Assembly: GCA_947631135.1 (NCBI GenBank)
Contig: CANRKE010000002.1
Span: 1-38,750 of the forward strand
Source: an uncultured Bacilli bacterium
GTDB taxonomy: Bacteria; Bacillota_I; Bacilli_A; RF39; UBA660
Length of the DNA: 38,750 nt
Direction: 5' to 3'
Part shown: one piece after another, positions 5,481-38,535 of the stretch
How the letters are laid out: each line of letters starts with the position of its first letter
Position numbering within the stretch: position 1 is the stretch's first letter
Notes under the pieces: generated by a model
The model's input: the letters and a program-made list of their open reading frames with translations, nothing else
What the model was told of the DNA's origin: nothing
Database searches by the model: none
Translations under genes and position numbers: made by a program

Positions 5481-5523
5481 GATTAAATAATTATTAATAA
5501 TAAATAATAGGAGAGTGATTGTT

Positions 5524-6981
5524 ATGGAAGACCAATCTAATAAGAAAATAGGTATAATGATAGGTGCGATAATATTAGTGTCAATATTAATTGTTGGAAT
5601 AACTTATGCATATTTATCAGCTAATAAAAAAGCAAATGATCGAACAGTAAAGGCAGGAACATTATTAATAGAGTACGAAGATGATAATGTAAATTCAGTA
5701 AAACTAGAAAATATAGTACCAATAGATGACAGTGATATGATGACTAATGCAAATAAAATAGCATTTAAAGTAAATAATAAAGGTACAGCTTTAGCTTATG
5801 TTGATATTAGTATAACAAACATAAGTTTACCAGATGCGCTTAAAAGTACAGAATTTAAATGGGCTTTATATTCAAATAATGAAAAAGTGAATTCAGGTAA
5901 TTTTTCAAATGTTGAAGATGAGGGAATGTCACTTGTAAAAAATCAGGAGATAGCATCAAAAGCAAGTAAAAATTATGAATTATATATTTGGATAACTGAA
6001 ACAGATCTAGATCAATCAAGTATGATGGAAAAAACATTTTCAGGTAAAATAACAATAAATGGACACCAATATAAAGTAGAACAAAAAGAATTATTATCTG
6101 ATATAATAAAAAATAATAATTCACCAATAGATACAAAAGAACCAGATTTTACAACAACAGCAGAAACAAATGAAGGTTTAATTGAAGGTGAAGATTCAGA
6201 TGGAAAAACATATTATTTTAGAGGTAATGTTAATAATAATTATGTAAAAATAGAAGGATTAAAATGGACAGATGATGATGGAAATTATCACAGAAAAGAT
6301 GAAGACATGTTATTTAGGATAGTTAGAATCAATGGAGATAATTCTATCAGAATAATAGCAAATGGTTCTATTGGAACATGTAAATTCAATGAAAATATGG
6401 ATATGGAACAATATGTAGGATATACATTTAATAATAATAAAGTGTGTACAAAGGATGCAAAATGTGATGGAACAGAGGGAACACCATCAAAAATAAAAAC
6501 TTACTTAGATGATTGGTATAAAAATAACATTGAAGAAAAATATGATTCACTATTTACAACATCAAGATATTGTAATGACACATCGGGTACAACAAATTCA
6601 TATGGAGCAAAAGATAGATTGGAAACAAAAAATACACCAACATTTATATGTCCAGATACAGAAAAAATGTATGGTGGAGAATATAATTTAAAAATTGGTT
6701 TATTGTCAGCAGATGAAGCAGTGTTTGCTGGTGGAAAATATAATACTATAAATCAAAACTATTATTTGGTGGGAAGTAGTAACATGAGATGGTTCCTTTC
6801 ACCTAATCGCTTTGATGGTAGTGCATTTGCATTTGAATTATACTTTAATAATCTTATTAATAGTGATTATGTTCATAATGAATATGCTTCAGTTCCAGTC
6901 TTAAATTTACGTTCTGATACATCATTTACAGAAGGAAATGGAGAAAAAAACACACCATATTTGGTACGAGTTAAAAATTAG
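5524..6981 (+). CDS. Secreted or surface protein, paralog A: SipW/TasA-like signal and N-domain plus conserved C-terminal module
   Basis: RBS AGGAGAG lies 8 nt before the ATG at 5524 (the listed GTG at 5515 overlaps the RBS). The N-terminal anchor KIGIMIGAIILVSILIVGITYAYLSA resembles SipW-cognate signals (TasA ...GGGTWAAFND). It is followed by AGTLLIEYEDD..V.L.NI, as in the first strands of TasA. The C-terminal part carries YYFRG, RINGD, RYCNDTS, LLSADE, FAGG, W.LSP and VPVLNLR. Confidence 0.85.
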   Translation: MEDQSNKKIGIMIGAIILVSILIVGITYAYLSANKKANDRTVKAGTLLIEYEDDNVNSVKLENIVPIDDSDMMTNANKIAFKVNNKGTALAYVDISITNISLPDALKSTEFKWALYSNNEKVNSGNFSNVEDEGMSLVKNQEIASKASKNYELYIWITETDLDQSSMMEKTFSGKITINGHQYKVEQKELLSDIIKNNNSPIDTKEPDFTTTAETNEGLIEGEDSDGKTYYFRGNVNNNYVKIEGLKWTDDDGNYHRKDEDMLFRIVRINGDNSIRIIANGSIGTCKFNENMDMEQYVGYTFNNNKVCTKDAKCDGTEGTPSKIKTYLDDWYKNNIEEKYDSLFTTSRYCNDTSGTTNSYGAKDRLETKNTPTFICPDTEKMYGGEYNLKIGLLSADEAVFAGGKYNTINQNYYLVGSSNMRWFLSPNRFDGSAFAFELYFNNLINSDYVHNEYASVPVLNLRSDTSFTEGNGEKNTPYLVRVKN

Positions 6982-7219: not shown

Positions 7220-8854
7220 ATGGAAAAGGAAAATAATAAGAAAAAAATAGGAATATTAATAAGTGCGATAATATTAGTATTAGTTCTAATAGTTGGAATA
7301 ACATATGCATATCTATCATCACATCTAAATACTGATAATCGTGATTTGCAAGCAGGAACATTACTAATAGAATATGAAGATGATAATGCAAATACAGTAA
7401 GATTAGATAATATACAATCAATATATGATAAAGATATAAAAGAAAAAGCTAGTAAGATAAGTTTTAAAGTAAACAATACAGGAACAGCTAAAGCTTATGT
7501 TGATATTAATATAACAGATATTAGTTTACCTCCTGAACTGGCAGATTTAGAATTTAAGTGGACATTATATTCAGGTGAAGAAAAAATAAATAATGGAAAC
7601 TTTAGAAATGTATTAGATAATAAAATATTACTTATAAATAATCAAGAAATTGCTAGTAAAGGAAATAAAATTTATGAATTATATATATGGATAAGTGAGA
7701 CAGGAAAAGACCAATCAGATATGATGAATAAAACTTTTTCTGGAAAAATAACAGTAGTAGGGCATCAAAAAAAACAATCAGAATTATTATCTAAAGTAAT
7801 TAAAAACAATAATCCATTACAAATAAATGATCCAAATTTTAACAAGGTTGCTGTTGCACAAGATTATTATGATATATTAACTGAAAGTACAAATCCTAAA
7901 CAATCTGAAGCAACTGTAGAAAACGGATTGTATGCAGGTGAAGATGCTGATGGAGAAACATATTATTTTAGAGGTAATGTAGAAGATAATTATTTAAAGA
8001 TTGAAGGTTTAAAATGGCCTAGTGATTCAAAACCAGCATATCTATTATCAAAAGCTAATATTATCTTTTTTTCAATTGGAAGTGTAGAAACAAATTGTGA
8101 TAATAACTATTCTACTTATGGTTATATATCAAATGAAGAATGTAAAGCAGATATAATGGAAGTAGGAGCACAGCCAGGTGAAGATATGTTATTTAGAATA
8201 ACGAGAATTAATGGAGATGGAACAATCAGAATAATAGCAGATGGTTCTGTCGCAAATTATCCATTTAATCAAAACCATAATTTAGAAAAATACGTAGGAT
8301 ATACATATGACAACAGTAAACCAAACATTCAAAATGGGAATCCTTCAAATATTAAAAGATATTTGGATAATTGGTATAAAAAAAACATGACTGATTATGA
8401 TAAAATACTAGCAAGTACAAGATATTGTAATGATACATCAGTATACAATATAAATGGAAATTCTATATATTATGGTGCATATAATAGAATAAGAAAAACA
8501 ATAACTCCGACATATATATGTCCTAATACAAATAAAACTTATGGTGGAGAATATGATTTAAAGATAGGACTATTATCAGCAGATGAAATTGTATTTGCTG
8601 GTGGAAATTACGGATTATCTAACAAAAGTTATTATTTATATGGAAGTATTGCATATAAATGGCTTATGTCACCATATTATTACAGTGGTAGTAATACTTC
8701 TGAATTTGGCACTCATATAGGAGGTAACATAGATTATAATTATAATTACAATAATGAAGCTGTTGTACCTGTCCTAAACATACGTGCAGATACACCTTTT
8801 ACAGAAGGTAATGGAACTAAAGATAATCCCTATTTGGTACGAACTGAAAATTAG
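7220..8854 (+). CDS. Secreted or surface protein, paralog B (same family as 5524..6981)
   Basis: RBS AGGAGAG lies about 10 nt before the ATG. It has the same signal (KIGILISAIILVLVLIVGITYAYLSS), N-domain and C-terminal motifs as paralog A. It also carries an extra Cys-containing insert of about 50 aa that is shared with paralog C. Confidence 0.9.
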   Translation: MEKENNKKKIGILISAIILVLVLIVGITYAYLSSHLNTDNRDLQAGTLLIEYEDDNANTVRLDNIQSIYDKDIKEKASKISFKVNNTGTAKAYVDINITDISLPPELADLEFKWTLYSGEEKINNGNFRNVLDNKILLINNQEIASKGNKIYELYIWISETGKDQSDMMNKTFSGKITVVGHQKKQSELLSKVIKNNNPLQINDPNFNKVAVAQDYYDILTESTNPKQSEATVENGLYAGEDADGETYYFRGNVEDNYLKIEGLKWPSDSKPAYLLSKANIIFFSIGSVETNCDNNYSTYGYISNEECKADIMEVGAQPGEDMLFRITRINGDGTIRIIADGSVANYPFNQNHNLEKYVGYTYDNSKPNIQNGNPSNIKRYLDNWYKKNMTDYDKILASTRYCNDTSVYNINGNSIYYGAYNRIRKTITPTYICPNTNKTYGGEYDLKIGLLSADEIVFAGGNYGLSNKSYYLYGSIAYKWLMSPYYYSGSNTSEFGTHIGGNIDYNYNYNNEAVVPVLNIRADTPFTEGNGTKDNPYLVRTEN

Positions 8855-13792: not shown

Positions 13793-14374
13793 TTACTTTA
13801 TTTTTTTATATTCTTTTAATACAGGCTGAAGTTGTTTATTTTCTAAAGCCTTTTCTATTGTCGGTAACAATAAATCATAGTGTGAAATTAAAGAATTTGG
13901 TTTGTTTTCATAGTTATCTTGACCGAATGGTACTATGAAAACACCCTTAGTATTCAATAATTTCATAATATTTTCGCCATTTAATCCAAGCCCATCATTA
14001 GTTGATACTGCAACTACGATAGGTTTTTGATTTCTAATTGTAGCTTTAACTGCTAAGTTTACTGGATTATCAGTTATACCATTTGCCATTTTAGCAATAA
14101 AATCTCCCGTTGCAGGAAGTACTACTGTAATATCCATTTTATTTTTTGGACCAAAAGTTTCAGCTTCAACAATATTTGATATAACATGTTTACCAGTAAT
14201 TTGTTCTAACGTGTTTATAAATTTTTTACTATCACCAAATCTTGTATCATATTTGCATATGTTTTCAGATACAACAGGATATACGTCATGACCAAGTGAA
14301 GTAAGTAACATTACCTGTTCTAGTGCGGTTTTTAAAGTACAAAATGACGATGTCATACAAAAACCAATTTTCAT
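13793..14374 (-). CDS. dpaB: Dipicolinate synthase subunit B (SpoVFB/DpaB)
   Basis: Close match, from memory, to B. subtilis SpoVFB: KATIRN, STNDGLGLNGENIMKLL, PFGQD, KPNS, TIEKAL, QLQP. Confidence 0.9.
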   Translation of the reverse strand: MKIGFCMTSSFCTLKTALEQVMLLTSLGHDVYPVVSENICKYDTRFGDSKKFINTLEQITGKHVISNIVEAETFGPKNKMDITVVLPATGDFIAKMANGITDNPVNLAVKATIRNQKPIVVAVSTNDGLGLNGENIMKLLNTKGVFIVPFGQDNYENKPNSLISHYDLLLPTIEKALENKQLQPVLKEYKKIK

Positions 14375-15222
14375 AATTTTCCCCCTGAAATACTCCTCAT
14401 CTTCATTTCTAATAAATGACCAGATGATACGGGTGAATATTTTGCTGGTATTTTACTATATATAAAATAATTTTTATCTTTAATATCATCTTTTCTTGCA
14501 CCATAAGGAACACTTGAAATATCAAGTATATAGCATTCATCACTTATATCGCTAATTAATTCTTTTGTAAGTATATTTTGTGGAACAGTATTTATAATTG
14601 TATCTGCACATTTTAAATATTTTGAAAATTCATCTTGATTAAATGTATCAAAAACTTTAATTTTCTTATTATATAATTCTAAATAATCATTATAATCTTT
14701 AACACCAACTACTAAATTAGCTCCTAATCCATTTAAAATACTTGCTAATGGTTTACCAATATTACCATATCCAAGAATAACAATGTTAGATGCAAATATA
14801 GTTTTTTCACCTCTATTACTAATTAGATTTTCTAATATGCCTTCTACAGTTATTAATGAATTACCGTTACATACTTCTTTATCATTTAAAAAATTATTAA
14901 TTTCCATATCATCTCTAACCATTTGTTTTAACGAATCTGTTACTTTTCCAGTAAATATTTGAACCCCCCTCATACAATTATCAAATAACTTACTGTCAAG
15001 AACAACTTTTGATTTACTAAATTCAGAATCAACACTATAATCATCTTTAATACCATTAATAGGTAAAACAATTATATTTATATTACTAATATCTCCATTA
15101 AATTTTTTTACATTAGTAAATATAGTATTATCATAACCAATTGTATATATATTATTTTTATCCTTTAAATCTTTAATAATTTTAGCATATCTCATATCTC
15201 CACCAATAAATAGTAAATTCAT
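14371..15222 (-). CDS. dpaA: Dipicolinate synthase subunit A (SpoVFA/DpaA)
   Basis: The N-terminus reads MNLLFIGGDMRY and a Rossmann motif ILGYGNIGK is present. The gene overlaps the dpaB start by 4 nt. The ATG at 15222 sits 5 nt after GGGGGA, whereas the listed ATG at 15240 has no RBS. Confidence 0.85.
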   Translation of the reverse strand: MNLLFIGGDMRYAKIIKDLKDKNNIYTIGYDNTIFTNVKKFNGDISNINIIVLPINGIKDDYSVDSEFSKSKVVLDSKLFDNCMRGVQIFTGKVTDSLKQMVRDDMEINNFLNDKEVCNGNSLITVEGILENLISNRGEKTIFASNIVILGYGNIGKPLASILNGLGANLVVGVKDYNDYLELYNKKIKVFDTFNQDEFSKYLKCADTIINTVPQNILTKELISDISDECYILDISSVPYGARKDDIKDKNYFIYSKIPAKYSPVSSGHLLEMKMRSISGGKL

Positions 15223-15322
15223 AAAATTCCCCCGTTTCATATATATTCTATTTATTTTTTATAATTTTGTGATTAATTTATGTATTTTAACTACAAAAAT
15301 TGATATATTTTTATAATTGTTA

Positions 15323-23376: not shown

Positions 23377-23518
23377 TTGATAATATGAGATTGTAATAAA
23401 AAAGGTAGGTCCTCTCCATAAAAGAACATGTGCAAACATATGTTCGATATGGGGGGGGTCATAAAATTTTTATAAGACCTTAAAAGCTTACCTTAAATAA
23501 GGTAGGTGTTTTATTTGG
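23377..23518 (+). promoter_or_regulatory. Conserved structured 5' leader, copy C (terminal hairpin overlaps the SD and start of the downstream gene)
   Basis: A helix pairs 23408..23417 with 23451..23460 (the G8 run) and an inner hairpin lies at 23424..23445. The terminal hairpin is CTTACCTT (23487..23494)-AAAT-AAGGTAGG (23499..23506), followed by GTTTTATTT. The 8-mer AAGGTAGG is also present at 23402..23409. Confidence 0.6.
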
Positions 23519-25107
23519 ATAAGAATAAAAGAAAGGTAACAACAATAGTAACGACATTAATAGCGATAGTATTACTATTAATAAGTATAACATATGCATA
23601 CATGTCAGCAACAAAAGTAACAACAAAGAATTCAGTACAAGCAGGAACATTATTAATTAATTATGAAGATGATAAATTAAATACAGTAAATTTAAGTAAT
23701 ATACAACCAATATATGATAAAGATATAAAGACTAAAGCTAATAAAATATCATTTAAAGTAAACAATACAGGAACAGCTAAAGCTTATGTAGATATCAATA
23801 TAACAGATATTAACCTACCTAGTGAGTTAGCAGATTTAGAGTTTAAATGGGCACTATATTCTGGTGATGAAAAAATAAGTAATGGTAATTTCAGAAATGT
23901 ATTAGATAATAAATTACTTCTAATCAACAACGAAGAAATAGAATCAACTAAAAATAAAAGTTATGATTTATATATCTGGATAAGTGAATCAGAATTAGAT
24001 CAATCAGATATGATGAATAAAACATTTTCTGCTAAAATAACAGTAGTAGGACATCAAAATAAACAAGCAGAATTACTTTCAAAAGTAATTAAAGATAATA
24101 ATGAACCTAGTACACAAAAACCTGATTTCAACAAAACATCAGAAACAGATGACGGATTAATACAAGATATAGATAAAGATGGAGAAACTTATTATTTTAG
24201 AGGAGCAGTAGAATACAATTATTTAAAAATAGAAGGATTAACATGGCCTGATGATTCAGAGACAGGATATCTAATACCTGGTAGTAAATTATTGATAGTA
24301 TTTCCTACAAAAAATGAGGCAGAAAATACTTGTAATTCATCATATTCACAATATGGATATCAATCAATAGATGAATGTAAAAATGAGATAAAGGAAGTAG
24401 GAGCACAACCAGGTGAATATATGTTATTTAGGGTAGTAAGAATTAATGGGGATAGAACTATTAGAATTATAGCTGATGGATCAATTGGTAAGAGTTCGTT
24501 TAATGTACCATCTAATGAAGAAAAGTATGTAGGGTATACATATAATAACAGTAAACCAAATATTCAAGATGGTGATTCTTCTACAATAAAGGAATATTTA
24601 GATAATTGGTATGACGAAAATATGACAAATTATAATAAGATATTCGCATATACAAGATATTGTAACGATACAACAACAGGACATATAAATAGTAGTGGAT
24701 ATTTATATTATGGAGCATATGATAGATTAGATGTCGATAATAATGGTGCTAATCCACAACCTACATATATATGTCCAAACACAGATAAATTATATGGAGG
24801 AGAATATGATTTAAAAATAGGATTATTATCAGCAGATGAAGTATCATTTGCAGGTGGAAAATATAATTCAATTAATCAAAATTATTATCTATTTGGTAAG
24901 AGTGGTTGGAGATTTCTTGGATCACCTAATTATTTTACAGGTAGTAATTCTAGTGAGTTTAGTATAAATGGATATGGTGGTTTAGGTATTAATAATATTA
25001 AAAATGAAAATTCAGTTATACCAGTCTTAAATCTACGTGCTGACACACCATTTATACAAGGTGATGGAACAAAGAACTCACCGTACATCGTAAGTGTAAA
25101 TAATTAA
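23515..25107 (+). CDS. Secreted or surface protein, paralog C (same family as 5524..6981 and 7220..8854)
   Basis: Same signal (IAIVLLLISITYAYMSA), N-domain and C-terminal motifs as the other paralogs. The TTG at 23515 lies 6 nt after AAGGTAGGTG and gives MDKNKRK..., matching the N-termini of A and B. The listed GTG at 23506 lies inside the SD. Confidence 0.85.
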   Translation: MDKNKRKVTTIVTTLIAIVLLLISITYAYMSATKVTTKNSVQAGTLLINYEDDKLNTVNLSNIQPIYDKDIKTKANKISFKVNNTGTAKAYVDINITDINLPSELADLEFKWALYSGDEKISNGNFRNVLDNKLLLINNEEIESTKNKSYDLYIWISESELDQSDMMNKTFSAKITVVGHQNKQAELLSKVIKDNNEPSTQKPDFNKTSETDDGLIQDIDKDGETYYFRGAVEYNYLKIEGLTWPDDSETGYLIPGSKLLIVFPTKNEAENTCNSSYSQYGYQSIDECKNEIKEVGAQPGEYMLFRVVRINGDRTIRIIADGSIGKSSFNVPSNEEKYVGYTYNNSKPNIQDGDSSTIKEYLDNWYDENMTNYNKIFAYTRYCNDTTTGHINSSGYLYYGAYDRLDVDNNGANPQPTYICPNTDKLYGGEYDLKIGLLSADEVSFAGGKYNSINQNYYLFGKSGWRFLGSPNYFTGSNSSEFSINGYGGLGINNIKNENSVIPVLNLRADTPFIQGDGTKNSPYIVSVNN

Positions 25108-25119
25108 ATTTATTAAAAT

Positions 25120-25175
25120 AAAAAAAAGATACTGTCTAAAATTAAGTAATTAATTTTAGACAGTACCATTTTTTT
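25120..25175. terminator. Bidirectional intrinsic terminator
   Basis: ACTGTCTAAAATTAA-GTAA-TTAATTTTAGACAGT (25131..25164) is a 15-bp stem flanked by an A-run (25120..25127) and a T-run (25169..25175). It sits between the convergent paralog C gene and the RiPP operon. Confidence 0.8.
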
Positions 25176-26457
25176 AATTACCTTCATTGTTATTTTTTTC
25201 AAGTAATAACTTTAGTAAAGGTTTAACAACAAATCTATTACGTACACAAGGTGTTCTCATAGTATTACTTAAGTTTCTATTATATAAGCATCCTCCTAAA
25301 CAAATAGGAAGAAAAGGGCATTCTTTACACTCTTCAAGTGCATATTTGAAATTATGATATTTTTCGGTATCATTTTTATCTACTGATGAAAAGTCTTGAA
25401 CACAAGCATGGGTAGTACCATCTGGAGCTATAACCACTGCATTTGATTTAGAAGCTAAACACCCATTAAATTTAGCTTTAGGAAATAAATCTTTAAGTGT
25501 AATTTTATTATTTGAATTAAGTAATGCTTTAAAAACATCGTAAAAGAAATCTTCTTTTTCAAAATCTTTAATATAGCTGTCAGCCATTTCATGTTCTGGT
25601 GGGAATAAGTAAGTAGGAAATAAATGAAGATTATCAAATTGCATTAAGTCAGATATAGAATCTAAAATTTTAGAAAAACTATCTTTATTGTGATTATCTA
25701 AATGTATTCTTAAATTAACATATACACCAGATTTTAATAGTTCCAATATTCCATCATGCGTTTTTTTAAAAGCACTTTCTCCATTTAAACTAACATTCTT
25801 TCTACGATTATGTTCTTCTTCTACTCCATCAATAGTAATATGCGCTGATTCTAAATGCCATTTATTAGTCATATGCGATATAAGATTTTTTGTAAGTAAG
25901 GTTCCATTAGTTGTAATTGATGAACTCCAGTTGTTATTTTTTAACTTATTCATGGATATTAACTTATCAATTATTTCATCAATTTTGTTAACACATAACA
26001 ATGGCTCACCACCATACCAATCTAGTACACATTTTGAGTTTTCATCTATATTTTTTGCTAAAAAATCTATAATTTTTTCGTTTGACTCTTTAGTTATGGA
26101 CTTCTTGCAATAATTTTCTTCGTAACAATAAAAACATTTAGCATTACAAGCTGTAGTAGGAATTATAGTAAAGAAATTAAGATTATTTTTTTTAGCAATT
26201 TCGATATTAGAAATAAATTTTTCATACTCATTAATATTATTTGGTACAATAAATCCATTTTCGGCTAGAATATGTTTTTCATCTTCTTTACTGCTTAGCA
26301 TATCATAATCTTCATCTATTATTACTACTGCTGAAGAAGCACTATTAAAAATAGCTTTTTTATTAAATTGACATACCTCAATATTATACATTGATTCTTT
26401 ATAAGGTATATCATCTACCAAATTATACTTGTTTTTACTTTCTCTACATATTTCCAT
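25174..26457 (-). CDS. Radical SAM/SPASM domain peptide-modifying enzyme B
   Basis: Radical SAM motif IIPTTACNAKCFYCYE (CxxxCxxC), plus WYGGEPLL and ITTNGTLL. The C-terminal SPASM Cys pattern reads C-x19-C ... CKECPFLPICLGGC...C. The start lies 2 nt after the methyltransferase stop. Confidence 0.85.
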   Translation of the reverse strand: MEICRESKNKYNLVDDIPYKESMYNIEVCQFNKKAIFNSASSAVVIIDEDYDMLSSKEDEKHILAENGFIVPNNINEYEKFISNIEIAKKNNLNFFTIIPTTACNAKCFYCYEENYCKKSITKESNEKIIDFLAKNIDENSKCVLDWYGGEPLLCVNKIDEIIDKLISMNKLKNNNWSSSITTNGTLLTKNLISHMTNKWHLESAHITIDGVEEEHNRRKNVSLNGESAFKKTHDGILELLKSGVYVNLRIHLDNHNKDSFSKILDSISDLMQFDNLHLFPTYLFPPEHEMADSYIKDFEKEDFFYDVFKALLNSNNKITLKDLFPKAKFNGCLASKSNAVVIAPDGTTHACVQDFSSVDKNDTEKYHNFKYALEECKECPFLPICLGGCLYNRNLSNTMRTPCVRNRFVVKPLLKLLLEKNNNEGN

Positions 26458-26458
26458 T

Positions 26459-27253
26459 TTATACCTTCTTTCTAGTAACTATTAATCCATGATTTGATGT
26501 TCCAAGTATTGATTTATTACGACATATTTTTAAATGATATCTCATCCAAATATCAAACTCAGCATCAGTCATTTGATTAATAGTATTTTGAAAAGCAATA
26601 CTTTGTCCATCTGTTGCTAAATGGTCAATAATTTCTAATTTATTATTTATTAAAATTTTTTCAATTTCAGAAGGATCATGAAAATAATTATCAGTCCAAA
26701 AGCAATATGGGCTATTAAACTCAATACAATGATTATCGATAATTTTATCCACTAATTCATTTGAAATCCTGTTTATATCACCTCTAATTGCACATGGAAA
26801 AACTGAAAATGGACTTATATAAGAAAACATAATAATACCATTAGGTTTTACAACTCTAATACATTCTTTTATACATTGATTTTGGTCAGAATTATTTAAA
26901 AGATGATATAAAGGACCCATGCAAAGCACAATATCAAAGCTATTATCTTTAAAAGTAGATAAATTTAATGCATTACAAACCATTGTTTTAATATTAATAT
27001 TTTTTTGTTTAATTATTTCATTAAGACGGTTAATGTGTTTTGGTACTAAATCAATAGAAGTTACATCCAAATTATGTTCCTTTAAATATAAAGAATAAAT
27101 ACCAACACCACACCCGACATCTAAACATTTCATTCCTGAAAAACAATATTTATCTAAAGTATTTATAGTTGTTAAATATTCTACTCTACGTGAAAGTGTA
27201 CTTTGTAGTCTATTTTCTTCGTCAATTTCCTTATATGATTCTATTAAATCCAA
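26459..27253 (-). CDS. Class I SAM-dependent methyltransferase
   Basis: Motif I LDVGCGVGIYS and the post-I acidic VTSIDL are present. The protein is 264 aa with a TTG start and no in-frame ATG alternative. Confidence 0.8.
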   Translation of the reverse strand: MDLIESYKEIDEENRLQSTLSRRVEYLTTINTLDKYCFSGMKCLDVGCGVGIYSLYLKEHNLDVTSIDLVPKHINRLNEIIKQKNINIKTMVCNALNLSTFKDNSFDIVLCMGPLYHLLNNSDQNQCIKECIRVVKPNGIIMFSYISPFSVFPCAIRGDINRISNELVDKIIDNHCIEFNSPYCFWTDNYFHDPSEIEKILINNKLEIIDHLATDGQSIAFQNTINQMTDAEFDIWMRYHLKICRNKSILGTSNHGLIVTRKKV

Positions 27254-27284
27254 TATTATACATCTTCTTTCTAAGAGTAACTTT

Positions 27285-28601
27285 CTATAAATTATTCATT
27301 TCATCAGCTGCTCTTTTTATTAAATCATTTATAGCACCCTTAACTGATGTGCAGGCATGATCTTTTCCATAAGTAAATGCTCTATATTTGCAGCCTCCTT
27401 GACATAGAGGAAGTAATTTACAATTATTACATTTTTCATCCTTAATATATGGGTTAGCAAAAACTTTAGATATTTCACTATTTGTTCTACCAGTAAAAAC
27501 GTTACCACTCGCATATTCTTCATGTCCTAATAATCTATGGCAATCAAAAATATTACCTGATGAATCTATTGTAAGCGATGATTTACATCCTCCATAACAA
27601 CTAGTTGGAATAGGTGTTAAATAATATTTTCTTAAAATAGCATCGTATTTTGTTCCTTCTTCAACTCTTTTATCGTAATTTCCAAAACTGCAATAATCTT
27701 TTTCTGCATCTAATAGTTCAATTAAAGGATGTTTTCTTTGATTTTTAAATTCATCTGTAATTGAAGGTATGTCTTTTGAATCAATAGGTGCTAGATAAAC
27801 AAAAAAGTTTTTATCTGATCCAAATCTGTCTTTTAGATAATCAACTGTTTTAATTGCTTTATCATTTTCTAGTGGATTAAAATTAATTCTAATTCTTACG
27901 TTTATATTATTATCCAAACATCTTTGAATATTATTCATTACAAGTTCAAATGGATTATCTATATTATAGTAATTCTTTATTTCATTATATTCATTATATA
28001 ACGCATCAATAGTTATTTGAATAATCTTTACATTCCATTCATTTACTGCTTTTTTAACAATTTCATCGTTTAATAAAGATCCATTTGTTATAATTTTTGA
28101 ATCAAATTTAACTCCATTTTTATGAAGTTTATCAACAATTAATGAAATTATTTTAGGTTCTAAAAGCGGCTCTCCACCAAACCATTGAATGACAAGATGT
28201 TCATCATCATGATTAGCGATAATATAATCTGCTACAGCCTCAGCTGTTTTTTTAGTCATTTTCTTTTGTTTTACACCTTTTTCAAAGCAATAATAACAAC
28301 GTGCATTACAGCCTGTAGTTGGACATATAATATAATAAGTTGGAGAAGTTTTATTTGCTTCCAACGTCATACATCTTAATGATTCCAAATATGAAAGTTC
28401 ATCATAATCATCATCAATTAAAAATCCCATTTCATGCAAAGATGAAACTTCTTCAGGATATTTTTCATAATCATTTTTTTCAAAAATTGACTCGTACATA
28501 TTTTTTTCTAATTCAACCATTGAAGTAGAAAAAGTAGAATAGAGTAAAACTGTATCAGGAGTTTTTCCCTTTTGTGATATTATAAACTTAGATTTTTTCA
28601 T
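27285..28601 (-). CDS. Radical SAM/SPASM domain peptide-modifying enzyme A
   Basis: Radical SAM motif IICPTTGCNARCYYCFE, plus WFGGEPLL and IITNGSLL. The SPASM pattern reads CYGGCKSSLTIDSSGNIFDC ... CNNCKLLPLCQGGCKY...C. About 90 aa precede the cluster motif, which is a possible RRE. RBS AAGGAG lies upstream. Confidence 0.85.
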   Translation of the reverse strand: MKKSKFIISQKGKTPDTVLLYSTFSTSMVELEKNMYESIFEKNDYEKYPEEVSSLHEMGFLIDDDYDELSYLESLRCMTLEANKTSPTYYIICPTTGCNARCYYCFEKGVKQKKMTKKTAEAVADYIIANHDDEHLVIQWFGGEPLLEPKIISLIVDKLHKNGVKFDSKIITNGSLLNDEIVKKAVNEWNVKIIQITIDALYNEYNEIKNYYNIDNPFELVMNNIQRCLDNNINVRIRINFNPLENDKAIKTVDYLKDRFGSDKNFFVYLAPIDSKDIPSITDEFKNQRKHPLIELLDAEKDYCSFGNYDKRVEEGTKYDAILRKYYLTPIPTSCYGGCKSSLTIDSSGNIFDCHRLLGHEEYASGNVFTGRTNSEISKVFANPYIKDEKCNNCKLLPLCQGGCKYRAFTYGKDHACTSVKGAINDLIKRAADEMNNL

Positions 28602-28631
28602 ATATTACTACTCCTTATTATATAAATAAAT

Positions 28632-28663
28632 ATTGTGTTGGTATAAGCACATACCAACACAAT
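28632..28663 (-). terminator. Hairpin between the precursor ORF and enzyme A (attenuator or partial terminator candidate)
   Basis: ATTGTGTTGGTAT-(6 nt)-ATACCAACACAAT is a 13-bp perfect stem. On the minus strand it is followed by ATTTATTTAT. Confidence 0.55.
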
Positions 28664-28696
28664 ATATTGTTTGTTTGTGCCAATTATAATATATAA

Positions 28697-28819
28697 TTAG
28701 CCATCACTACAATGACATAAACAACTACTTGCCATTTCATTAGCTACGAATTTTTCAGAAGCAGCTGTTTCAAGTTCTTTTGAAGCAATTTCTTGAGAAA
28801 CTTCTCTAATTATTTTCAT
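28697..28819 (-). CDS. 40-aa Cys-rich RiPP precursor candidate (not in the supplied ORF track)
   Basis: Hand translation gives MKIIREVSQEIASKELETAASEKFVANEMASSCLCHCSDG*. AAGGAGGTGAAGTT lies immediately before the ATG. The ORF sits between a consensus promoter and the radical SAM genes on the same strand. Confidence 0.75.
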   Translation of the reverse strand: MKIIREVSQEIASKELETAASEKFVANEMASSCLCHCSDG

Positions 28820-28867
28820 AACTTCACCTCCTTGATAAGGTCAATAAATATTTGTCATGACACCTAA

Positions 28868-28896
28868 AGTATAGCAAACACTTTATCATTTGTCAA
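28868..28896 (-). promoter_or_regulatory. Sigma-A-type promoter of the RiPP operon
   Basis: On the minus strand: TTGACA (28896..28891), a 17-nt spacer, then TATACT (28873..28868). This is about 50 nt upstream of the precursor ATG. Confidence 0.75.
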
Positions 28897-28991: not shown

Positions 28992-29020
28992 TTGACATAA
29001 TTTTGTCTTTAATATATAAT
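28992..29020 (+). promoter_or_regulatory. Sigma-A-type promoter for the LiaF-like gene (divergent from the RiPP promoter)
   Basis: TTGACA (28992..28997), a 17-nt spacer, then TATAAT (29015..29020). The implied TSS near 29027 favours the ATG at 29064 over the listed TTG at 29025. Confidence 0.7.
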
Positions 29021-29063
29021 TGAGTTGTTAGAATTCATAGTAAATAAAGGGAGATGTTTAATA

Positions 29064-29729
29064 ATGTTATTAGGAATTTTAGTATTAGTTTTAGGGTTAA
29101 TATCACTTATAGAAGTAATATTTCCAACTATTGCATTTACATTTTGGTTTTATGTATCAGTAATTATATTTGTATGTGGATTATATAAGATAATAATTGA
29201 AGAAAAAATTACTATAATTAATGCAATAATAACTATATTAGGTTTATTATTTTCATTAGTTAATTTAGATATATTACCACCATATTTAATAAATGCAATA
29301 ATACCTATTTTAATTATTATATTAGGTGTAACTATAATATATAATACATCATCATTGAAAAAGCCATATTCACGTAATAATAAATCTAAAAGATATAATG
29401 CAATATTATCTGATAATATAGAAAAGATTAAAACATTAGATAAATCTGATATTGAAAGTTATACTGTATTTGGTAATCTAAAATTAGATTTAAGTGATTT
29501 AGAAATAGAAGATGATATAAATATGATTGTCTATACAATATTTGGTGAAAGTACAATTATTGCATCAGACAAATATAATATAGATCTTACATCTACTGCG
29601 GTATTAGGTGAAAATATTAAGAAATTTGATATAGAAGATAGTAAAAATAAAAAGACTATATATATTAATTGTATATCTATATTTGGTGGAGCAAAGATAA
29701 CAAAAAATGATAAAGCAAAGAATAAATAA
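29064..29729 (+). CDS. Membrane protein with a LiaF-like (DUF2154-type) C-terminal domain
   Basis: Four N-terminal TM segments are followed by repetitive beta-like segments (YTVFGNLKLDLSDL, MIVYTIFGESTIIAS, INCISIFGGAKI), as in LiaF-type cell-envelope stress proteins. RBS GGGAG lies upstream. Confidence 0.55.
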   Translation: MLLGILVLVLGLISLIEVIFPTIAFTFWFYVSVIIFVCGLYKIIIEEKITIINAIITILGLLFSLVNLDILPPYLINAIIPILIIILGVTIIYNTSSLKKPYSRNNKSKRYNAILSDNIEKIKTLDKSDIESYTVFGNLKLDLSDLEIEDDINMIVYTIFGESTIIASDKYNIDLTSTAVLGENIKKFDIEDSKNKKTIYINCISIFGGAKITKNDKAKNK

Positions 29730-37036: not shown

Positions 37037-37104
37037 ATTATATAAAGTTTAATAAAAAGTATTTACCTTTTACAATTTTAATGATATACTCTTATTGTGT
37101 ATTT

Positions 37105-37147
37105 GAAAAACCCCCATCAAAAATTGAAAAAAATAATGGGGTTTTTC
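37105..37147 (+). promoter_or_regulatory. Inverted repeat or hairpin in the abiEi leader
   Basis: GAAAAACCCC (37105..37114) pairs with GGGGTTTTTC (37138..37147), separated by 23 nt. It lies downstream of a TGaTATACT extended -10 (37082..37090) and just before RBS AAGGAG (37153..37158). Confidence 0.5.
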
Positions 37148-37165
37148 AACAAAAGGAGTGTTAAG

Positions 37166-37708
37166 ATGTTGTATAAAAGAAAAGAAATTATAAAGAAATA
37201 TGGTACGTGGTATAATTTAGAAAAAGCTATTAAAAATAAAGAAATATTTAAATTAGCTAATGGGATTTATTCAGATAAAGATATTGTAGATCCTATGGCA
37301 GTAGTTTGTAAGAAATATTCTAGTGCAATCATTACGATGGATTCAGCTTTTTATTATTATGATTTAACAGATGTAATTCCAACAAAGACTTATATTGCAA
37401 CTAATAGAAACACAGATACTATTAATAAAGAGAACATTGTTCAAATAAAAGTACCTAAAGAAAAATTAAATCAAGGAGCTGAAGTAGTTACAGTTGATTC
37501 ACTTGAAGTTAGAATCTATAATAGAGAACGACTTTTAGTTGAATTAATAAGAAAAAGAAATCAAATACCATTTGATTATTATAAAGAATTGATTACAAAT
37601 TATCGAAAAATTGCTGATGAACTAGATATGCGAAAAATAGAAGAATATATTGCTTTATATAAAAATGAGGTTAATTTAGGAAATGCTTTATTAAGAGAGG
37701 TGTTTTAG
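37166..37708 (+). CDS. AbiEi-family antitoxin / transcriptional regulator (type IV TA)
   Basis: About 180 aa with an AbiEi-like N-terminus (LYKRKEIIKKYG...LEKAIKNKEIFKLANGIYSD). It lies directly upstream of, and overlaps, the AbiEii gene. The ATG at 37166 sits 7 nt after AAGGAG. Confidence 0.7.
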   Translation: MLYKRKEIIKKYGTWYNLEKAIKNKEIFKLANGIYSDKDIVDPMAVVCKKYSSAIITMDSAFYYYDLTDVIPTKTYIATNRNTDTINKENIVQIKVPKEKLNQGAEVVTVDSLEVRIYNRERLLVELIRKRNQIPFDYYKELITNYRKIADELDMRKIEEYIALYKNEVNLGNALLREVF

Positions 37709-38535
37709 TGGACTTAGAAGATTTTGTTAGAAAATATATTAAAGAAGGATATACTTTAAATGATGCTAGATCTAAAGTTTCTCAAGATGTTATATTGATT
37801 AAGATTGCTAAAAGCAATTTTAAAAATCATATAACAATCAAAGGTGGAGTTGTTATGCATAATATGTCTAATTCTGTTCGTAGAGCTACAAGAGATTTAG
37901 ATTTAGACTTTATTAAGTATTCATTAGATGATGATTCAATAAGAAATTTTATATCCAAATTAAACTTGGTAAATGATAACATAAAAATAGAAATAATTGA
38001 TAAAATAACTGAACTTCATCATCAAGATTATGATGGTAAAAGAGTTGTTATAAAAATAACTGATGATAATAATTATAGTATAACTACTAAGATGGATATA
38101 GGTGTTCATAAACTATTTGATTTAAAACAAGAAGAATATTATTTTGATTTTGATATTATTAATAATGGTGTAAATCTTCTTATAAATTCAGTTGAGCAAA
38201 TATTCTCTGAAAAATTAAAATCTTTATTAAAACTTGGATTTAGGTCGACTAGGTATAAAGATTTATTTGATTTTTATTATTTGATAACTAATGATAAATT
38301 AGATAAAAGAAAATTATTAAAAACTATTAAGATTCTTATATTTGATGATAATAATATGTATGAAAATAATTTAAATGATATTTATAATAGATTAAAACAT
38401 ACTCTTAATTTTAAAATTTATAAAGATAATTTAAATAATCCTAAATATAATTGGCTTGATATTTCACTTGATGAAGCTATTAAAGTAGTATTAGATTTTA
38501 TTTTAAAATTAGAAACAGAAGTAGTAAAAGTTTAA
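37708..38535 (+). CDS. AbiEii/AbiGii-family nucleotidyltransferase toxin (DUF1814)
   Basis: ITIKGGVVMHNM....RRATRDLDLDF matches the AbiEii NTase motif (KGG...R.T.DlD). The protein is 275 aa. The GTG start overlaps the abiEi stop (TAGTG). Confidence 0.75.
   Translation: MDLEDFVRKYIKEGYTLNDARSKVSQDVILIKIAKSNFKNHITIKGGVVMHNMSNSVRRATRDLDLDFIKYSLDDDSIRNFISKLNLVNDNIKIEIIDKITELHHQDYDGKRVVIKITDDNNYSITTKMDIGVHKLFDLKQEEYYFDFDIINNGVNLLINSVEQIFSEKLKSLLKLGFRSTRYKDLFDFYYLITNDKLDKRKLLKTIKILIFDDNNMYENNLNDIYNRLKHTLNFKIYKDNLNNPKYNWLDISLDEAIKVVLDFILKLETEVVKV

What the first reader, a model, noticed from the sequence alone, without database searches (positions are those of the whole stretch)
25174..28896. Compact RiPP-like cassette: Cys-rich precursor, two paralogous radical SAM/SPASM enzymes and a methyltransferase, with no protease, exporter or immunity gene
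One minus-strand transcription unit is bounded by a near-consensus promoter (TTGACA-17-TATACT, 28896..28868) and a strong bidirectional terminator (25131..25164). It encodes, in order: a 40-aa peptide ending SSCLCHCSDG; rSAM/SPASM enzyme A (438 aa); a class I SAM methyltransferase (264 aa); and rSAM/SPASM enzyme B (427 aa). The last two genes are separated by 1 nt.
Both rSAM proteins show the CxxxCxxC motif (CNARCYYC and CNAKCFYC), GGEPLL and a full C-terminal SPASM cysteine set. That set implies auxiliary Fe-S clusters like those of sactipeptide/ranthipeptide synthases, anSME and mycofactocin MftC. Both also have 90-100 residues ahead of the cluster motif that could be a leader-recognition (RRE/PqqD-like) domain.
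Two distinct SPASM enzymes plus a methyltransferase acting on a 3-Cys core of about 11 residues predicts at least two radical chemistries plus methylation. The absence of a leader peptidase, ABC exporter or immunity gene recalls SCIFF and mycofactocin-type systems (intracellular, signalling or cofactor-like) rather than bacteriocins. I do not recognise the precursor as SCIFF, subtilosin/thuricin, streptide (KxxxW) or mycofactocin type.
Basis: partly seen in the sequence, partly recalled or inferred. Interest (0 to 1): 0.85.

Follow-up and report, generated by a model that had tools for sequence, protein, structure and literature searches.

The report
Modular Cys-rich radical-SAM peptide cassette
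This is a real, self-contained four-gene operon that makes a small cysteine-rich modified peptide, from an uncharacterised gut-bacterial family whose tail (Cys-x3-Asp-Gly-end) points to thioether ring chemistry; an extra enzyme pair appears only when the peptide carries a third cysteine.

Summary

Both rSAM enzymes are RRE-rSAM-SPASM peptide maturases. Their best PDB fold match is CteB, and they hit only RiPP-maturase NCBIfam models, all far below cut-off. They are not anSME-like.

The small ORF is a real gene. It sits beside A-homologues down to about 40% identity and is under purifying selection. The family hallmark is a C-terminal C-x(1-2)-C-[R/H]-x-S-D-G-COOH, which contains a PapB-like Cys-X3-Asp motif plus an invariant terminal Gly.

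New finding: the cassette is modular. Relatives carry pre-A alone, pre-A-MT1, or pre-A-MT1-MT2-B. MT2+B occur only where the residue at -4 is Cys (…C[R/H]CSDG). Loci without them have Val or Ile there (…CRVSDG).

Relatives sit in ICE or prophage-like contexts in gut and rumen Clostridia. No protease, exporter or immunity gene is conserved.

Best reading: a mini ranthipeptide-like RiPP. A makes carboxylate-directed thioethers and MT2+B process the third Cys. The chemistry and function are untested. I found no publication on it. I rate it a new variant of a known kind, of moderate to high interest.

The parts
28868..28896 (-). sigma-70-type promoter TTGACA-17-TATACT with an extended -10 TG
   Evidence: 11/12 matches. 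Its position is 49 nt upstream of the precursor ATG.
28697..28819 (-). Precursor peptide gene (40 aa): leader MKIIREVSQEIASKELETAASEKFVANE, core ~MASSCLCHCSDG
   Evidence: It is conserved in relatives and under purifying selection. It has no Pfam or NCBIfam family.
28630..28665 (-). Perfect 15-bp stem-loop between the precursor and rSAM A; a likely partial terminator or attenuator that gives an excess of precursor transcript
   Evidence: I25. A strong hairpin sits at the same position, with a different sequence, in all 10 relatives examined.
27285..28601 (-). rSAM/SPASM maturase A (438 aa): RRE-like N-terminal domain, CNARCYYC motif, 8-Cys SPASM
26459..27253 (-). Class I SAM methyltransferase MT2 (264 aa, TTG start)
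   Evidence: Orthologues at 57-63% identity always lie directly upstream of rSAM B.
25174..26457 (-). rSAM/SPASM maturase B (427 aa): RRE-like N-terminal domain, CNAKCFYC motif, 7-Cys SPASM
25128..25167 (.). Bidirectional intrinsic terminator (18-bp stem, T-runs on both strands) closing the operon and the convergent 533-aa gene
   Evidence: I2.

Best explanation
The region is a self-contained RiPP operon from an uncharacterised, modular family of very small Cys-rich peptides.

Proposed pathway:
1. The 40-aa precursor has a leader of about 28 residues with an invariant EKFVANE box. The leader is bound by the N-terminal RRE-like domains of the two rSAM/SPASM enzymes.
2. Enzyme A is the ancestral core maturase. 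It most likely makes thioether ring(s) from the two invariant cysteines (-8 and -6) to carbons next to the two carboxylates of the invariant C-terminal Asp-Gly. These would be Asp Cβ within a Cys-X3-Asp motif and/or the terminal Gly Cα. That would be PapB-type, ranthipeptide-like chemistry.
3. MT2 and rSAM B form an accessory module that processes the third cysteine at -4. It performs one further radical step, such as a third cross-link, plus a methyl transfer.
4. A hairpin after the precursor gene probably keeps precursor mRNA in excess.
5. No dedicated protease, exporter or immunity protein is needed or encoded.

Shown here: the gene content, the domain architecture, conservation of the precursor and its motif, the modular architecture, and the Cys(-4) to MT2+B co-variation.

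Inferred: thioether chemistry, the acceptor atoms, which atom is methylated, and the biological role.
For: Enzyme class:
- Both enzymes hit only peptide-maturase NCBIfam models. A: TIGR04463 159 bits, geopeptide 143, PapB 135. B: Clo7bot 134, TIGR04463 128.
- The best PDB sequence and fold match for both is the thioether synthase CteB over about 455-480 aligned columns, followed by SuiB, TigE and anSME.
- The AF2 models are confident (pLDDT 85 and 91), with a β3α3 N-terminal domain in A and a strand-rich one in B that also aligns with CteB's.
- The SPASM Cys sets are invariant.

Precursor:
- It is conserved beside A-homologues from 100% down to about 40% identity.
- The tail is ...C-x(1-2)-C-[RH]-x-S-D-G. 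Examples are CLCRCSDG, CLCRVSDG, CPMCRVSDG, CPRCRISDG, CPKCRVQDG and, in L016, CLCLTSDG.
- In the last 19 codons, synonymous changes far outnumber non-synonymous ones in most comparisons.

Chemistry analogy:
- PapB cross-links Cys to the carbon adjacent to a carboxylate in C-Xn-D/E motifs (n = 0-6), and the acceptor must lie C-terminal to the Cys (PMC9413430).
- In vitro, PapB also cross-links to the Cα of a C-terminal Gly in leader-CSANG (PMC12373016).
- More distant relatives of A (30-38% identity) sit next to Cys/Asp-rich cores.

Module logic:
- MT2+B are present in the window, L090, L092, L220, L217-219, L086/87, L088/89/137/225 and L224. They are also inferred on the contigs of P0247 and P0256. 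All of these have Cys at -4.
- MT2+B are absent from L001-4, L006/L226, L222/223, L005/L012, L007-9, L011, L139, L141 and L142, and from the second system in L090. All of these have Val or Ile at -4 (contig matching across).
- In the rSAM A tree, the B-minus loci L001 and L006 are nested inside the B-plus clade. This implies one gain and one or two losses, and residue -4 switched each time.
- Homologues of B above 40% identity form a tight group; matching longest-contig lengths place about 15 of them with A-homologues, and every looked-up locus confirms it.

Operon features:
- The promoter, a hairpin conserved in position, the terminator, and the tight or overlapping MT2-B junction.
Against: - No chemistry was tested.
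- Both enzymes score far below the curated cut-off of every characterised family, including PapB (135 against 340 bits). Thioether formation and the acceptor atoms are therefore analogy only.
- The co-variation rests on perhaps 2-3 evolutionary events within one clade.
- One locus (L010, CPKCRCSDG) has Cys at -4, but its contig ends before the downstream genes can be seen.
- With only two carboxylate-adjacent carbons available, the acceptor for a third Cys is unexplained.
- The methyltransferase matches only generic class I families (UbiG, TehB, MftM; weakly LahSB), so its target atom (O, S or N) is unknown.
- rSAM B is split by a frameshift in L225 and L227. This may be an assembly error at about 2x coverage (L227), or it may mean the module is dispensable.
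Confidence: 0.62

Rival explanations
1. A classical sactipeptide-type product. A and/or B link the Cys sulfurs to backbone α-carbons of ordinary residues (such as Ser, Ala or Leu in the core), independently of carboxylates. The Asp-Gly tail would serve recognition or activity rather than acting as the acceptor.
For: The closest solved structure for both enzymes is CteB, deposited under a 'sactipeptide thioether' title, and SkfB also appears in the lists. Two-rSAM sactipeptide systems exist: RumMC1/MC2 (PMC8188230) and thuricin CD TrnC/TrnD (PMC12093266), both found.
Against: - The core is only about 11 residues, with the Cys N-terminal to an invariant D-G-COOH.
- Wider relatives of A have Cys/Asp-rich cores, which fits carboxylate-directed chemistry.
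- Among characterised families, the best catalytic-domain hit for A is PapB, a ranthipeptide maturase.
- CteB's natural product thermocellin is, from my own background knowledge, now classed as a ranthipeptide.
Confidence: 0.15
2. One or both rSAM enzymes do non-thioether chemistry on the peptide. Possibilities are epimerisation, Cys oxidation to formylglycine or a thioaldehyde, or a methyl-dependent cross-link after S-methylation by MT2. rSAM B is the more likely candidate.
For: - B and MT2 are always adjacent and often translationally coupled, which suggests a joint reaction.
- B shows relatively stronger anSME similarity than A: 4e-8 by sequence, and Foldseek ranks 4-8.
- No third carboxylate acceptor exists for Cys(-4).
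- Both enzymes fall below the cut-off of every characterised family.
Against: - B's top HMM and fold hits are still RRE-containing peptide cross-linkers (Clo7bot, TIGR04463, CteB).
- B retains a full 7-Cys SPASM, as thioether synthases do.
- I found no precedent for a class I MT plus SPASM methyl-bridge reaction in the literature searches.
Confidence: 0.15
3. A rival at the level of function. The product is an intracellular or quorum-type signalling, redox or metal-binding peptide, as proposed for SCIFF-type ranthipeptides, rather than a secreted antimicrobial.
For: - No exporter, leader peptidase or immunity gene is present in the window or conserved in relatives.
- The CxCxC tail could bind metals.
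- Ranthipeptides are described as lacking well-characterised antimicrobial activity (PMC13289728).
Against: - Relatives sit in ICE or prophage-like islands next to toxin, defence and recombinase genes, which is typical of competition or defence cargo.
- One locus (L224) has an ABC transporter 1 kb downstream.
- General peptidases and exporters could act in trans.
Confidence: 0.35
4. The enzymes are anSME-like or other protein-modifying rSAMs, and the small ORF is irrelevant.
For: Both enzymes give weak anSME hits: TIGR03942 at 62-65 bits, and 4k36-4k39 in the fold lists.
Against: - The scores are far below the 349-bit cut-off.
- No sulfatase gene is present in the window.
- Both enzymes have an RRE-like N-terminal domain that, from my own background knowledge, anSME lacks. 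Consistent with this, the anSME fold alignments span only about 375-400 columns against about 455-480 for CteB.
- The small ORF co-evolves with the enzymes.
Confidence: 0.02

Closest known systems
PapA/PapB (freyrasin) ranthipeptide system, NF047865
   Same: Both use an rSAM/SPASM maturase. The core has a Cys followed three residues later by Asp (CHCSD / CRVSD), with the acceptor C-terminal to the Cys. In vitro, PapB also accepts a C-terminal Gly as acceptor (PMC12373016), and this family ends in an invariant Gly. The leader contains a conserved Asn (FVANE), and a leader Asn has been proposed as important for PapA (PMC9413430).
   Different: A scores 135 bits against the 340-bit cut-off, and B scores 102. 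PapA has six CX3D repeats in a longer core, whereas here there is a single motif at the extreme C-terminus of a 40-aa peptide. A and B carry a fused N-terminal RRE-like domain of about 90 residues, whereas the PapB model (330 positions) aligns only from residue 95. This cassette also has a second rSAM and one or two methyltransferases.
CteB/CteA (thermocellin) and SCIFF systems, TIGR03973/TIGR03974; PDB 5WGG/5WHY
   Same: CteB is the best solved-structure match for both A and B, with the same RRE-rSAM-SPASM architecture. Both are Clostridial, with a short Cys-rich precursor and no protease or exporter in the locus.
   Different: The precursor has no match to the SCIFF model. The maturase scores are 89 and 59 bits against a cut-off of 425. 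SCIFF has six Cys in a roughly 45-aa peptide with a different motif, and it has no tailoring methyltransferases.
Uncharacterised NCBIfam maturase families TIGR04463 (rSAM_vs_C_rich), TIGR04334 (Clo7bot), TIGR04280 (geopeptide) and NF038107 (CefB)
   Same: These are the top HMM hits. All are full-length RRE-rSAM-SPASM enzymes paired with short Cys-rich peptides.
   Different: All scores are 3-5 fold below the cut-offs (159/525, 134/600, 143/400, 128/600). To my knowledge the chemistry of these families is itself undefined.
Two-rSAM sactipeptide systems: RumMC1/MC2 (ruminococcin C) and TrnC/TrnD (thuricin CD)
   Same: Two rSAM/SPASM enzymes in one RiPP operon of gut Firmicutes.
   Different: Those enzyme pairs serve several or two-component precursors that are longer hairpin peptides. 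Their loci include exporters, peptidases and immunity genes. Here, the second enzyme is a distant paralogue tied to a single extra Cys and to a methyltransferase.
RiPP carboxyl O-methyltransferases (for example LahSB, PDB 6UAK)
   Same: MT2 gives a weak sequence hit to LahSB (2e-7). The invariant Asp-Gly-COOH tail offers two carboxylates as potential methyl acceptors.
   Different: The similarity is limited to the generic Rossmann core. Equally good or better hits go to UbiG, TehB and phosphoethanolamine methyltransferases. MT2 is not a PCMT-type enzyme.

Membership tests
RiPP biosynthetic cassette (generic) | A short precursor gene adjacent to the modifying enzymes, with a bipartite leader and core, conserved across homologous loci | tested here: met
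RiPP biosynthetic cassette (generic) | A leader-recognition (RRE/PqqD-like) domain in or next to the maturase | tested here: met
   A's AF2 N-terminal domain is β3α3. Both A and B give full-length Foldseek alignments to the RRE-containing CteB and TigE, and A also to SuiB. There is no Pfam PqqD hit.
rSAM/SPASM subfamily | A CxxxCxxC motif plus the C-terminal CX9-15GX4C ... CX2CX5CX3C ... C cysteine set | tested here: met
   Sequence. The Cys are invariant in both families. TIGR04085 SPASM scores 52.8 bits for A against a cut-off of 27.
PapB-family ranthipeptide maturase (NF047865) | A score at or above the curated cut-off of 340 bits | tested here: not met
   A scores 134.8 bits and B scores 102.3 bits.
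PapB-family ranthipeptide maturase (NF047865) | A substrate with Cys-X3-Asp/Glu motif(s), acceptor C-terminal to the Cys | tested here: met
   CHCSD in the window, and CR[VCI]SD in relatives down to about 40% identity.
PapB-family ranthipeptide maturase (NF047865) | A thioether from Cys S to a non-α carbon (Asp Cβ or Glu Cγ) | not testable with these tools
   This needs MS/MS and NMR of the product.
SCIFF (TIGR03973 precursor / TIGR03974 maturase) | The precursor matches the six-Cys SCIFF model and the maturase scores at or above 425 bits | tested here: not met
   The precursor has no NCBIfam hit. A scores 89.1 bits and B scores 58.6 bits.
Sactipeptide | A Cys S to Cα thioether made by an RRE-rSAM-SPASM enzyme | not testable with these tools
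   The enzyme architecture is compatible. The bond type is unknown.
Anaerobic sulfatase-maturating enzyme (TIGR03942) | A score at or above 349 bits, and a sulfatase substrate gene | tested here: not met
   The scores are 64.8 and 62.1 bits. There is no sulfatase in the window.
Mycofactocin system | An MftA-type precursor (from my own background knowledge, ending in Val-Tyr), an MftC-type rSAM, and MftM scoring at or above 200 bits | tested here: not met
   The precursor ends in ...SDG. MftC is not among the top 25 hits for either enzyme. MT2 against MftM scores 53.8 bits.
TIGR04463 / TIGR04334 (Clo7bot) maturase families | A score at or above the curated cut-offs (525 and 600 bits) | tested here: not met
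   A scores 158.8 bits on TIGR04463 and B scores 134.3 bits on TIGR04334.
Known anti-phage defence systems (PADLOC) | A specific match to a defence-system protein model | tested here: not met
   Only generic rSAM-core (pVip) and Rossmann (mad2) matches were found.

The most novel reading that the evidence does not exclude
The family would be a natural example of C-terminal-carboxylate-directed thioether formation. A Cys would be linked to the Cα of the invariant terminal Gly, alongside a Cys-Asp Cβ link. So far this is known only as an in vitro promiscuous activity of PapB.

In addition, the MT2 and rSAM B pair would perform a reaction on the third cysteine that has not yet been described. One example would be methyl transfer coupled to a radical cross-link, since no carboxylate-adjacent acceptor remains. 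The result would be a densely cross-linked, methylated peptide of about 11 residues, spread by mobile elements among gut Clostridia.
Probability: 0.15. Interest if true: 0.8.

Novelty: new variant of a known kind. Interest (0 to 1): 0.55.

Why it matters
- **An undetected family.** This defines an uncharacterised RiPP family that is widespread in gut and rumen organisms. One rSAM B orthologue is indexed in 458 blocks of the assembly collection, and the contigs read for it were ENA metagenome contigs. The antiSMASH rule cited keys ranthipeptides on the SCIFF precursor model TIGR03973, which this precursor does not match, so that rule would likely not flag it.
- **A ready-made hypothesis.** The natural modularity (pre-A; +MT1; +MT2+B), together with a single-residue switch in the core (Val to Cys at -4), gives a structure-function hypothesis. 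It tells an experimenter which enzyme to pair with which residue.
- **A possible biological role for known in vitro chemistry.** If enzyme A uses the terminal Gly or Asp carboxylates as PapB does in vitro, the recently reported C-terminal macrocyclisation activity would gain a natural context.
- **A small, tractable target.** The product is tiny and would be easy to make and characterise.

Tried and rejected
- **Curated families.** Pfam and NCBIfam give no family for the precursor, and none above cut-off for either rSAM.
- **PADLOC.** Only generic hits, so a defence-system reading is not supported.
- **Rfam.** Nothing reached gathering threshold in the whole window, so no riboswitch or leader RNA is known here.
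- **Literature.** A full-text search for the tail strings (CRVSDG, CRCSDG, CHCSDG) found nothing. Keyword searches for ranthipeptide plus methyltransferase, S-methylcysteine or mobile elements found no description of this family.
- **First metagenome scan.** The scan with the single protein found nothing. The repeat with an alignment gave only one close locus.
- **Horizontal-transfer signature in the window.** GC content is about 25%, like the flanks. There are no flanking direct repeats and no tRNA. Insertion is not demonstrable here, although relatives are clearly on mobile elements.
- **MT1 and Arg(-5).** I considered that MT1 might target Arg(-5). The window is the only locus in the ≥67% clade without MT1, and the only one with His at -5. 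This is a single event, and the outgroups have Arg without MT1, so I kept it only as a lead.
- **Organism identification.** Cluster-member names gave nothing. The organism is known only as a roughly 25% GC, dpaAB- and PASTA-kinase-bearing Firmicute, also seen in five low-coverage ENA assemblies.

Full report
**1. The observation**

- Precursor: 28819..28697, 40 aa, MKIIREVSQEIASKELETAASEKFVANEMASSCLCHCSDG, preceded by AAGGAGG.
- rSAM A: 28601..27285, 438 aa.
- A class I methyltransferase, here called MT2: 27253..26459, 264 aa, TTG start.
- rSAM B: 26457..25174, 427 aa.

One nucleotide separates the MT2 stop from the B start.

The consensus scan recovers the promoter TTGACA-17-TATACT with an extended -10 TG (28896..28868). 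It also recovers the 18-bp bidirectional terminator (25167..25128). Terminator-like sites are enriched in this region (5 found, 0.8 expected). Promoter-like sites are not, so the promoter rests on its quality and position.

Pfam annotation of the rest of the window shows ordinary chromosomal genes. These are grpE-dnaK-pepF-dnaJ, a U32 peptidase, dpaA/dpaB, an M29 aminopeptidase, pflB-pflA, a LiaF-TM-like protein, rluD, rlmN, a PP2C phosphatase, a PASTA kinase and rsgA. There is no dedicated exporter, leader peptidase or immunity gene near the operon. GC content is about 25% throughout.

**2. The enzymes**

Both rSAM proteins match only peptide-maturase models in NCBIfam, and all scores are far below the curated cut-offs.

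| Enzyme | NCBIfam scores in bits, with cut-off where cited |
|---|---|
| A | TIGR04463 159 (525); geopeptide 143 (400); PapB 135 (340); CefB 128; Clo7bot 122; SCIFF maturase 89; QhpD 89; anSME 65 (349) |
| B | Clo7bot 134; TIGR04463 128; geopeptide 121; CefB 105; PapB 102; anSME 62 |

By sequence, the best solved structure for both is the thioether synthase CteB (5WGG), at 4e-19 for A and 9e-11 for B.

AlphaFold models built on family alignments are confident, with pLDDT 85.3 and 90.8. Foldseek against the PDB again puts CteB first for both, over about 455-480 aligned columns. SuiB, TigE and anSME follow.

The N-terminal 85-95 residues also fold as a domain. In A it is three strands followed by three helices, the RRE-type topology. 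In B it is richer in strands, but it aligns with CteB's N-terminal domain in the same way.

The radical-SAM triad and the SPASM cysteines are invariant across each family. A and B share 28% identity over 407 residues, so they are distant paralogues.

MT2 is a generic class I SAM methyltransferase (Methyltransf_11/25). Its weak best hits are UbiG, MftM and TehB, plus a weak PDB hit to the RiPP carboxyl methyltransferase LahSB. None of these is diagnostic.

**3. The precursor is real and belongs to a family**

Homologues of A are plentiful in gut and rumen metagenomes. One tier sits at 57-76% identity and a second at about 40-48%.

In every locus with enough flanking sequence, a peptide gene of about 40 aa lies beside the A-homologue.
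- Its N-terminus is MK[VI]I.
- In the close tier it carries a conserved EKFVANE box.
- It ends in C-x(1-2)-C-[R/H]-x-S-D-G-stop. Examples are CLCRCSDG, CLCRVSDG, CICRVSDG, CPMCRVSDG, CPRCRISDG and CPKCRVQDG. At 37% identity, L016 has CLCLTSDG and CCCLVNDG.

Codon comparison shows purifying selection. Against L090, the last 19 codons differ at 14 synonymous and only 2 non-synonymous positions.

A profile of the close precursors was searched against 1.84 billion representative proteins. It finds only 17 sequences, nearly all with the same tail. The window's His at -5 is unique; nearly all other members have Arg there.

The precursor has no Pfam or NCBIfam model. I found no paper that contains the tail strings.

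**4. The cassette is modular, and the module tracks one residue**

Homologues of rSAM B at 42-60% identity form a tight group.

| Architecture | Loci |
|---|---|
| pre-A-MT1-MT2-B, the commonest in the close tier | L086-L089, L092, L137, L217-L220, L224, L225 |
| pre-A-MT1-MT2-B plus a second system (rSAM C with its own ...CPRCRVSDG precursor) | L090 |
| pre(x1-2)-A-MT1 | L001-4, L006, L226 |
| pre-A only | L222/223 and the 40-48% tier |
| pre-A-MT2-B, lacking MT1 | the window only |

MT1 is a second class I methyltransferase of 270-273 aa. It shares only about 24% identity with MT2.

Every locus with MT2+B has Cys at -4 (…C[R/H]CSDG). Every locus that demonstrably lacks them has Val or Ile at -4 (…CR[VI]SDG or CRVQDG).

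Two further contigs fit the rule by contig matching. P0247 sits with P0045 and P0152, and P0256 sits with P0147.

L010 (CPKCRCSDG) is uninformative because its contig ends too soon.

In a neighbour-joining tree of A, the B-minus loci L001 and L006 are nested within the B-plus clade, and the outgroups are B-minus. The pattern therefore reflects about one gain and one or two losses, not many independent events. It is suggestive rather than statistically strong.

**5. Other conserved features**

A strong hairpin follows the precursor gene in all ten relatives examined. Its position is conserved but its sequence is not. From my own background knowledge, this is the usual bacteriocin/RiPP device for producing excess precursor transcript.

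MT2 and B are separated by 1 nt in the window and overlap in relatives, which suggests translational coupling.

The contexts of relatives vary and are rich in mobile-element genes:
- FtsK/SpoIIIE proteins, integrases, serine recombinases and PemK
- a TerY/PP2C/kinase triad and Sel1 proteins
- two IMG/VR contigs

No exporter or peptidase recurs; only L224 has an ABC transporter nearby. In the window the cassette sits between housekeeping genes, with no recombinase, tRNA or flanking repeats.

**6. The most likely mechanism**

The invariant features of the core are two Cys followed by Asp-Gly with a free C-terminus.

PapB, the best-matching characterised catalytic domain for A, links a Cys thiol to the carbon adjacent to a carboxylate. 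It accepts C-Xn-D/E with n = 0-6, and it requires the acceptor to lie C-terminal to the Cys (PMC9413430). In vitro it also makes a thioether to the Cα of a C-terminal Gly in leader-CSANG (PMC12373016).

The tail C(-8)-x-C(-6)-[R/H]-x-S-D(-2)-G(-1) therefore offers exactly two carboxylate-adjacent carbons for exactly two invariant Cys. C(-6) to D(-2) has the canonical CX3D spacing.

More distant relatives of A pair with Cys/Asp-rich cores, which fits this chemistry.

I therefore infer that A installs one or two such thioethers.

The third Cys at -4 has no equivalent acceptor. Its strict association with MT2+B argues that this pair processes it, through one more radical step plus a methyl transfer. 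I cannot tell whether the methyl goes to a carboxylate, a sulfur or a nitrogen.

All of this section is inference. Nothing about bond type, methylation site, leader removal, export or biological activity is shown.

**7. Comparison with what is known, and novelty**

Functionally, the nearest systems are PapA/PapB and CteA/CteB (SCIFF) ranthipeptides.

Formal membership fails for every curated family tested: PapB, SCIFF, TIGR04463, Clo7bot, geopeptide, CefB, anSME and mycofactocin.

The combination seen here is not described in the papers I could search:
- a 40-aa precursor with a single terminal CX3DG motif
- a second, distant SPASM paralogue
- one or two class I methyltransferases
- a core-residue switch that tracks an enzyme module

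I rate it a new variant of a known kind. Its 'intracellular or cofactor-like' suggestion remains open.

Noticed in passing
window 28992-29020 (+) and 29025-29729 (+): A perfect 12/12 sigma-70 promoter (TTGACA-17-TATAAT) is divergent from the cassette promoter. It drives a 234-aa membrane protein with a weak LiaF-TM match. The same gene lies upstream of the precursor in other assemblies of this organism (L227-L231). A LiaF-like cell-envelope-stress protein next to a peptide cassette could be coincidence or a link.
   Followed up: partly
window 5515-6981, 7220-8854, 23506-25107 (+): Three paralogous secreted proteins of 488, 544 and 533 aa share 49-60% identity. They have a camelysin/SipW-type N-terminal signal region and no other Pfam domain. 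The third one converges on the cassette terminator.
   Followed up: partly
L090 7284-8609 and 8708-8830: A second, minimal system sits directly downstream of the full cassette. It consists of a third rSAM (41% identical to A, related to the L010/L138 branch) with its own downstream precursor, MKVANKAVLKEMVKAMKKDATKKFTACNPEKCPRCRVSDG.
   Followed up: partly
L088 2567-2755; L086/L087 ~2572-2763; L006 3101-3313; L226 7628-7840; L137/L225 4502-4687: A conserved 62-70-aa Cys-rich protein (...CGHNCADGCIYWNPYD.DSNGRQYC.HY..YYYPRERQGCLSYKG) often lies next to the cassette in relatives. It has no Pfam, NCBIfam or PADLOC family and is absent from the window.
   Followed up: partly
L225 7936-9211; L227 3238-4519: rSAM B is split into two ORFs in two assemblies, including another assembly of the window's own organism at about 2x coverage. 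This is either an assembly error or ongoing decay of the module.
   Followed up: no
L007 5220-5801; L009 3581-4129: In the 45-48% tier, a conserved GNAT-like ORF of 182-193 aa (by eye, not scanned against any library) lies directly upstream of the precursor. It may be another optional tailoring enzyme.
   Followed up: no
window 37097-38535 (+): An AbiEii-family nucleotidyltransferase toxin (275 aa) is preceded by an overlapping 203-aa ORF with no Pfam hit. This is probably an AbiE-type toxin-antitoxin or abortive-infection pair.
   Followed up: no
window 13793-15240 (-): dpaB (a flavoprotein) and dpaA (dipicolinate synthase) are present. Together with the PASTA kinase, they indicate a spore-forming Firmicute at about 25% GC. 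The organism could not be named with the tools available.
   Followed up: partly
window precursor residue 36 (His), codon at about 28714-28712: The window has His at -5, while nearly all other family members have Arg (one, P0265, has Cys). The window is also the only locus in the ≥67% clade that lacks MT1. This may hint that MT1 acts on or near Arg(-5), but it rests on a single event.
   Followed up: partly
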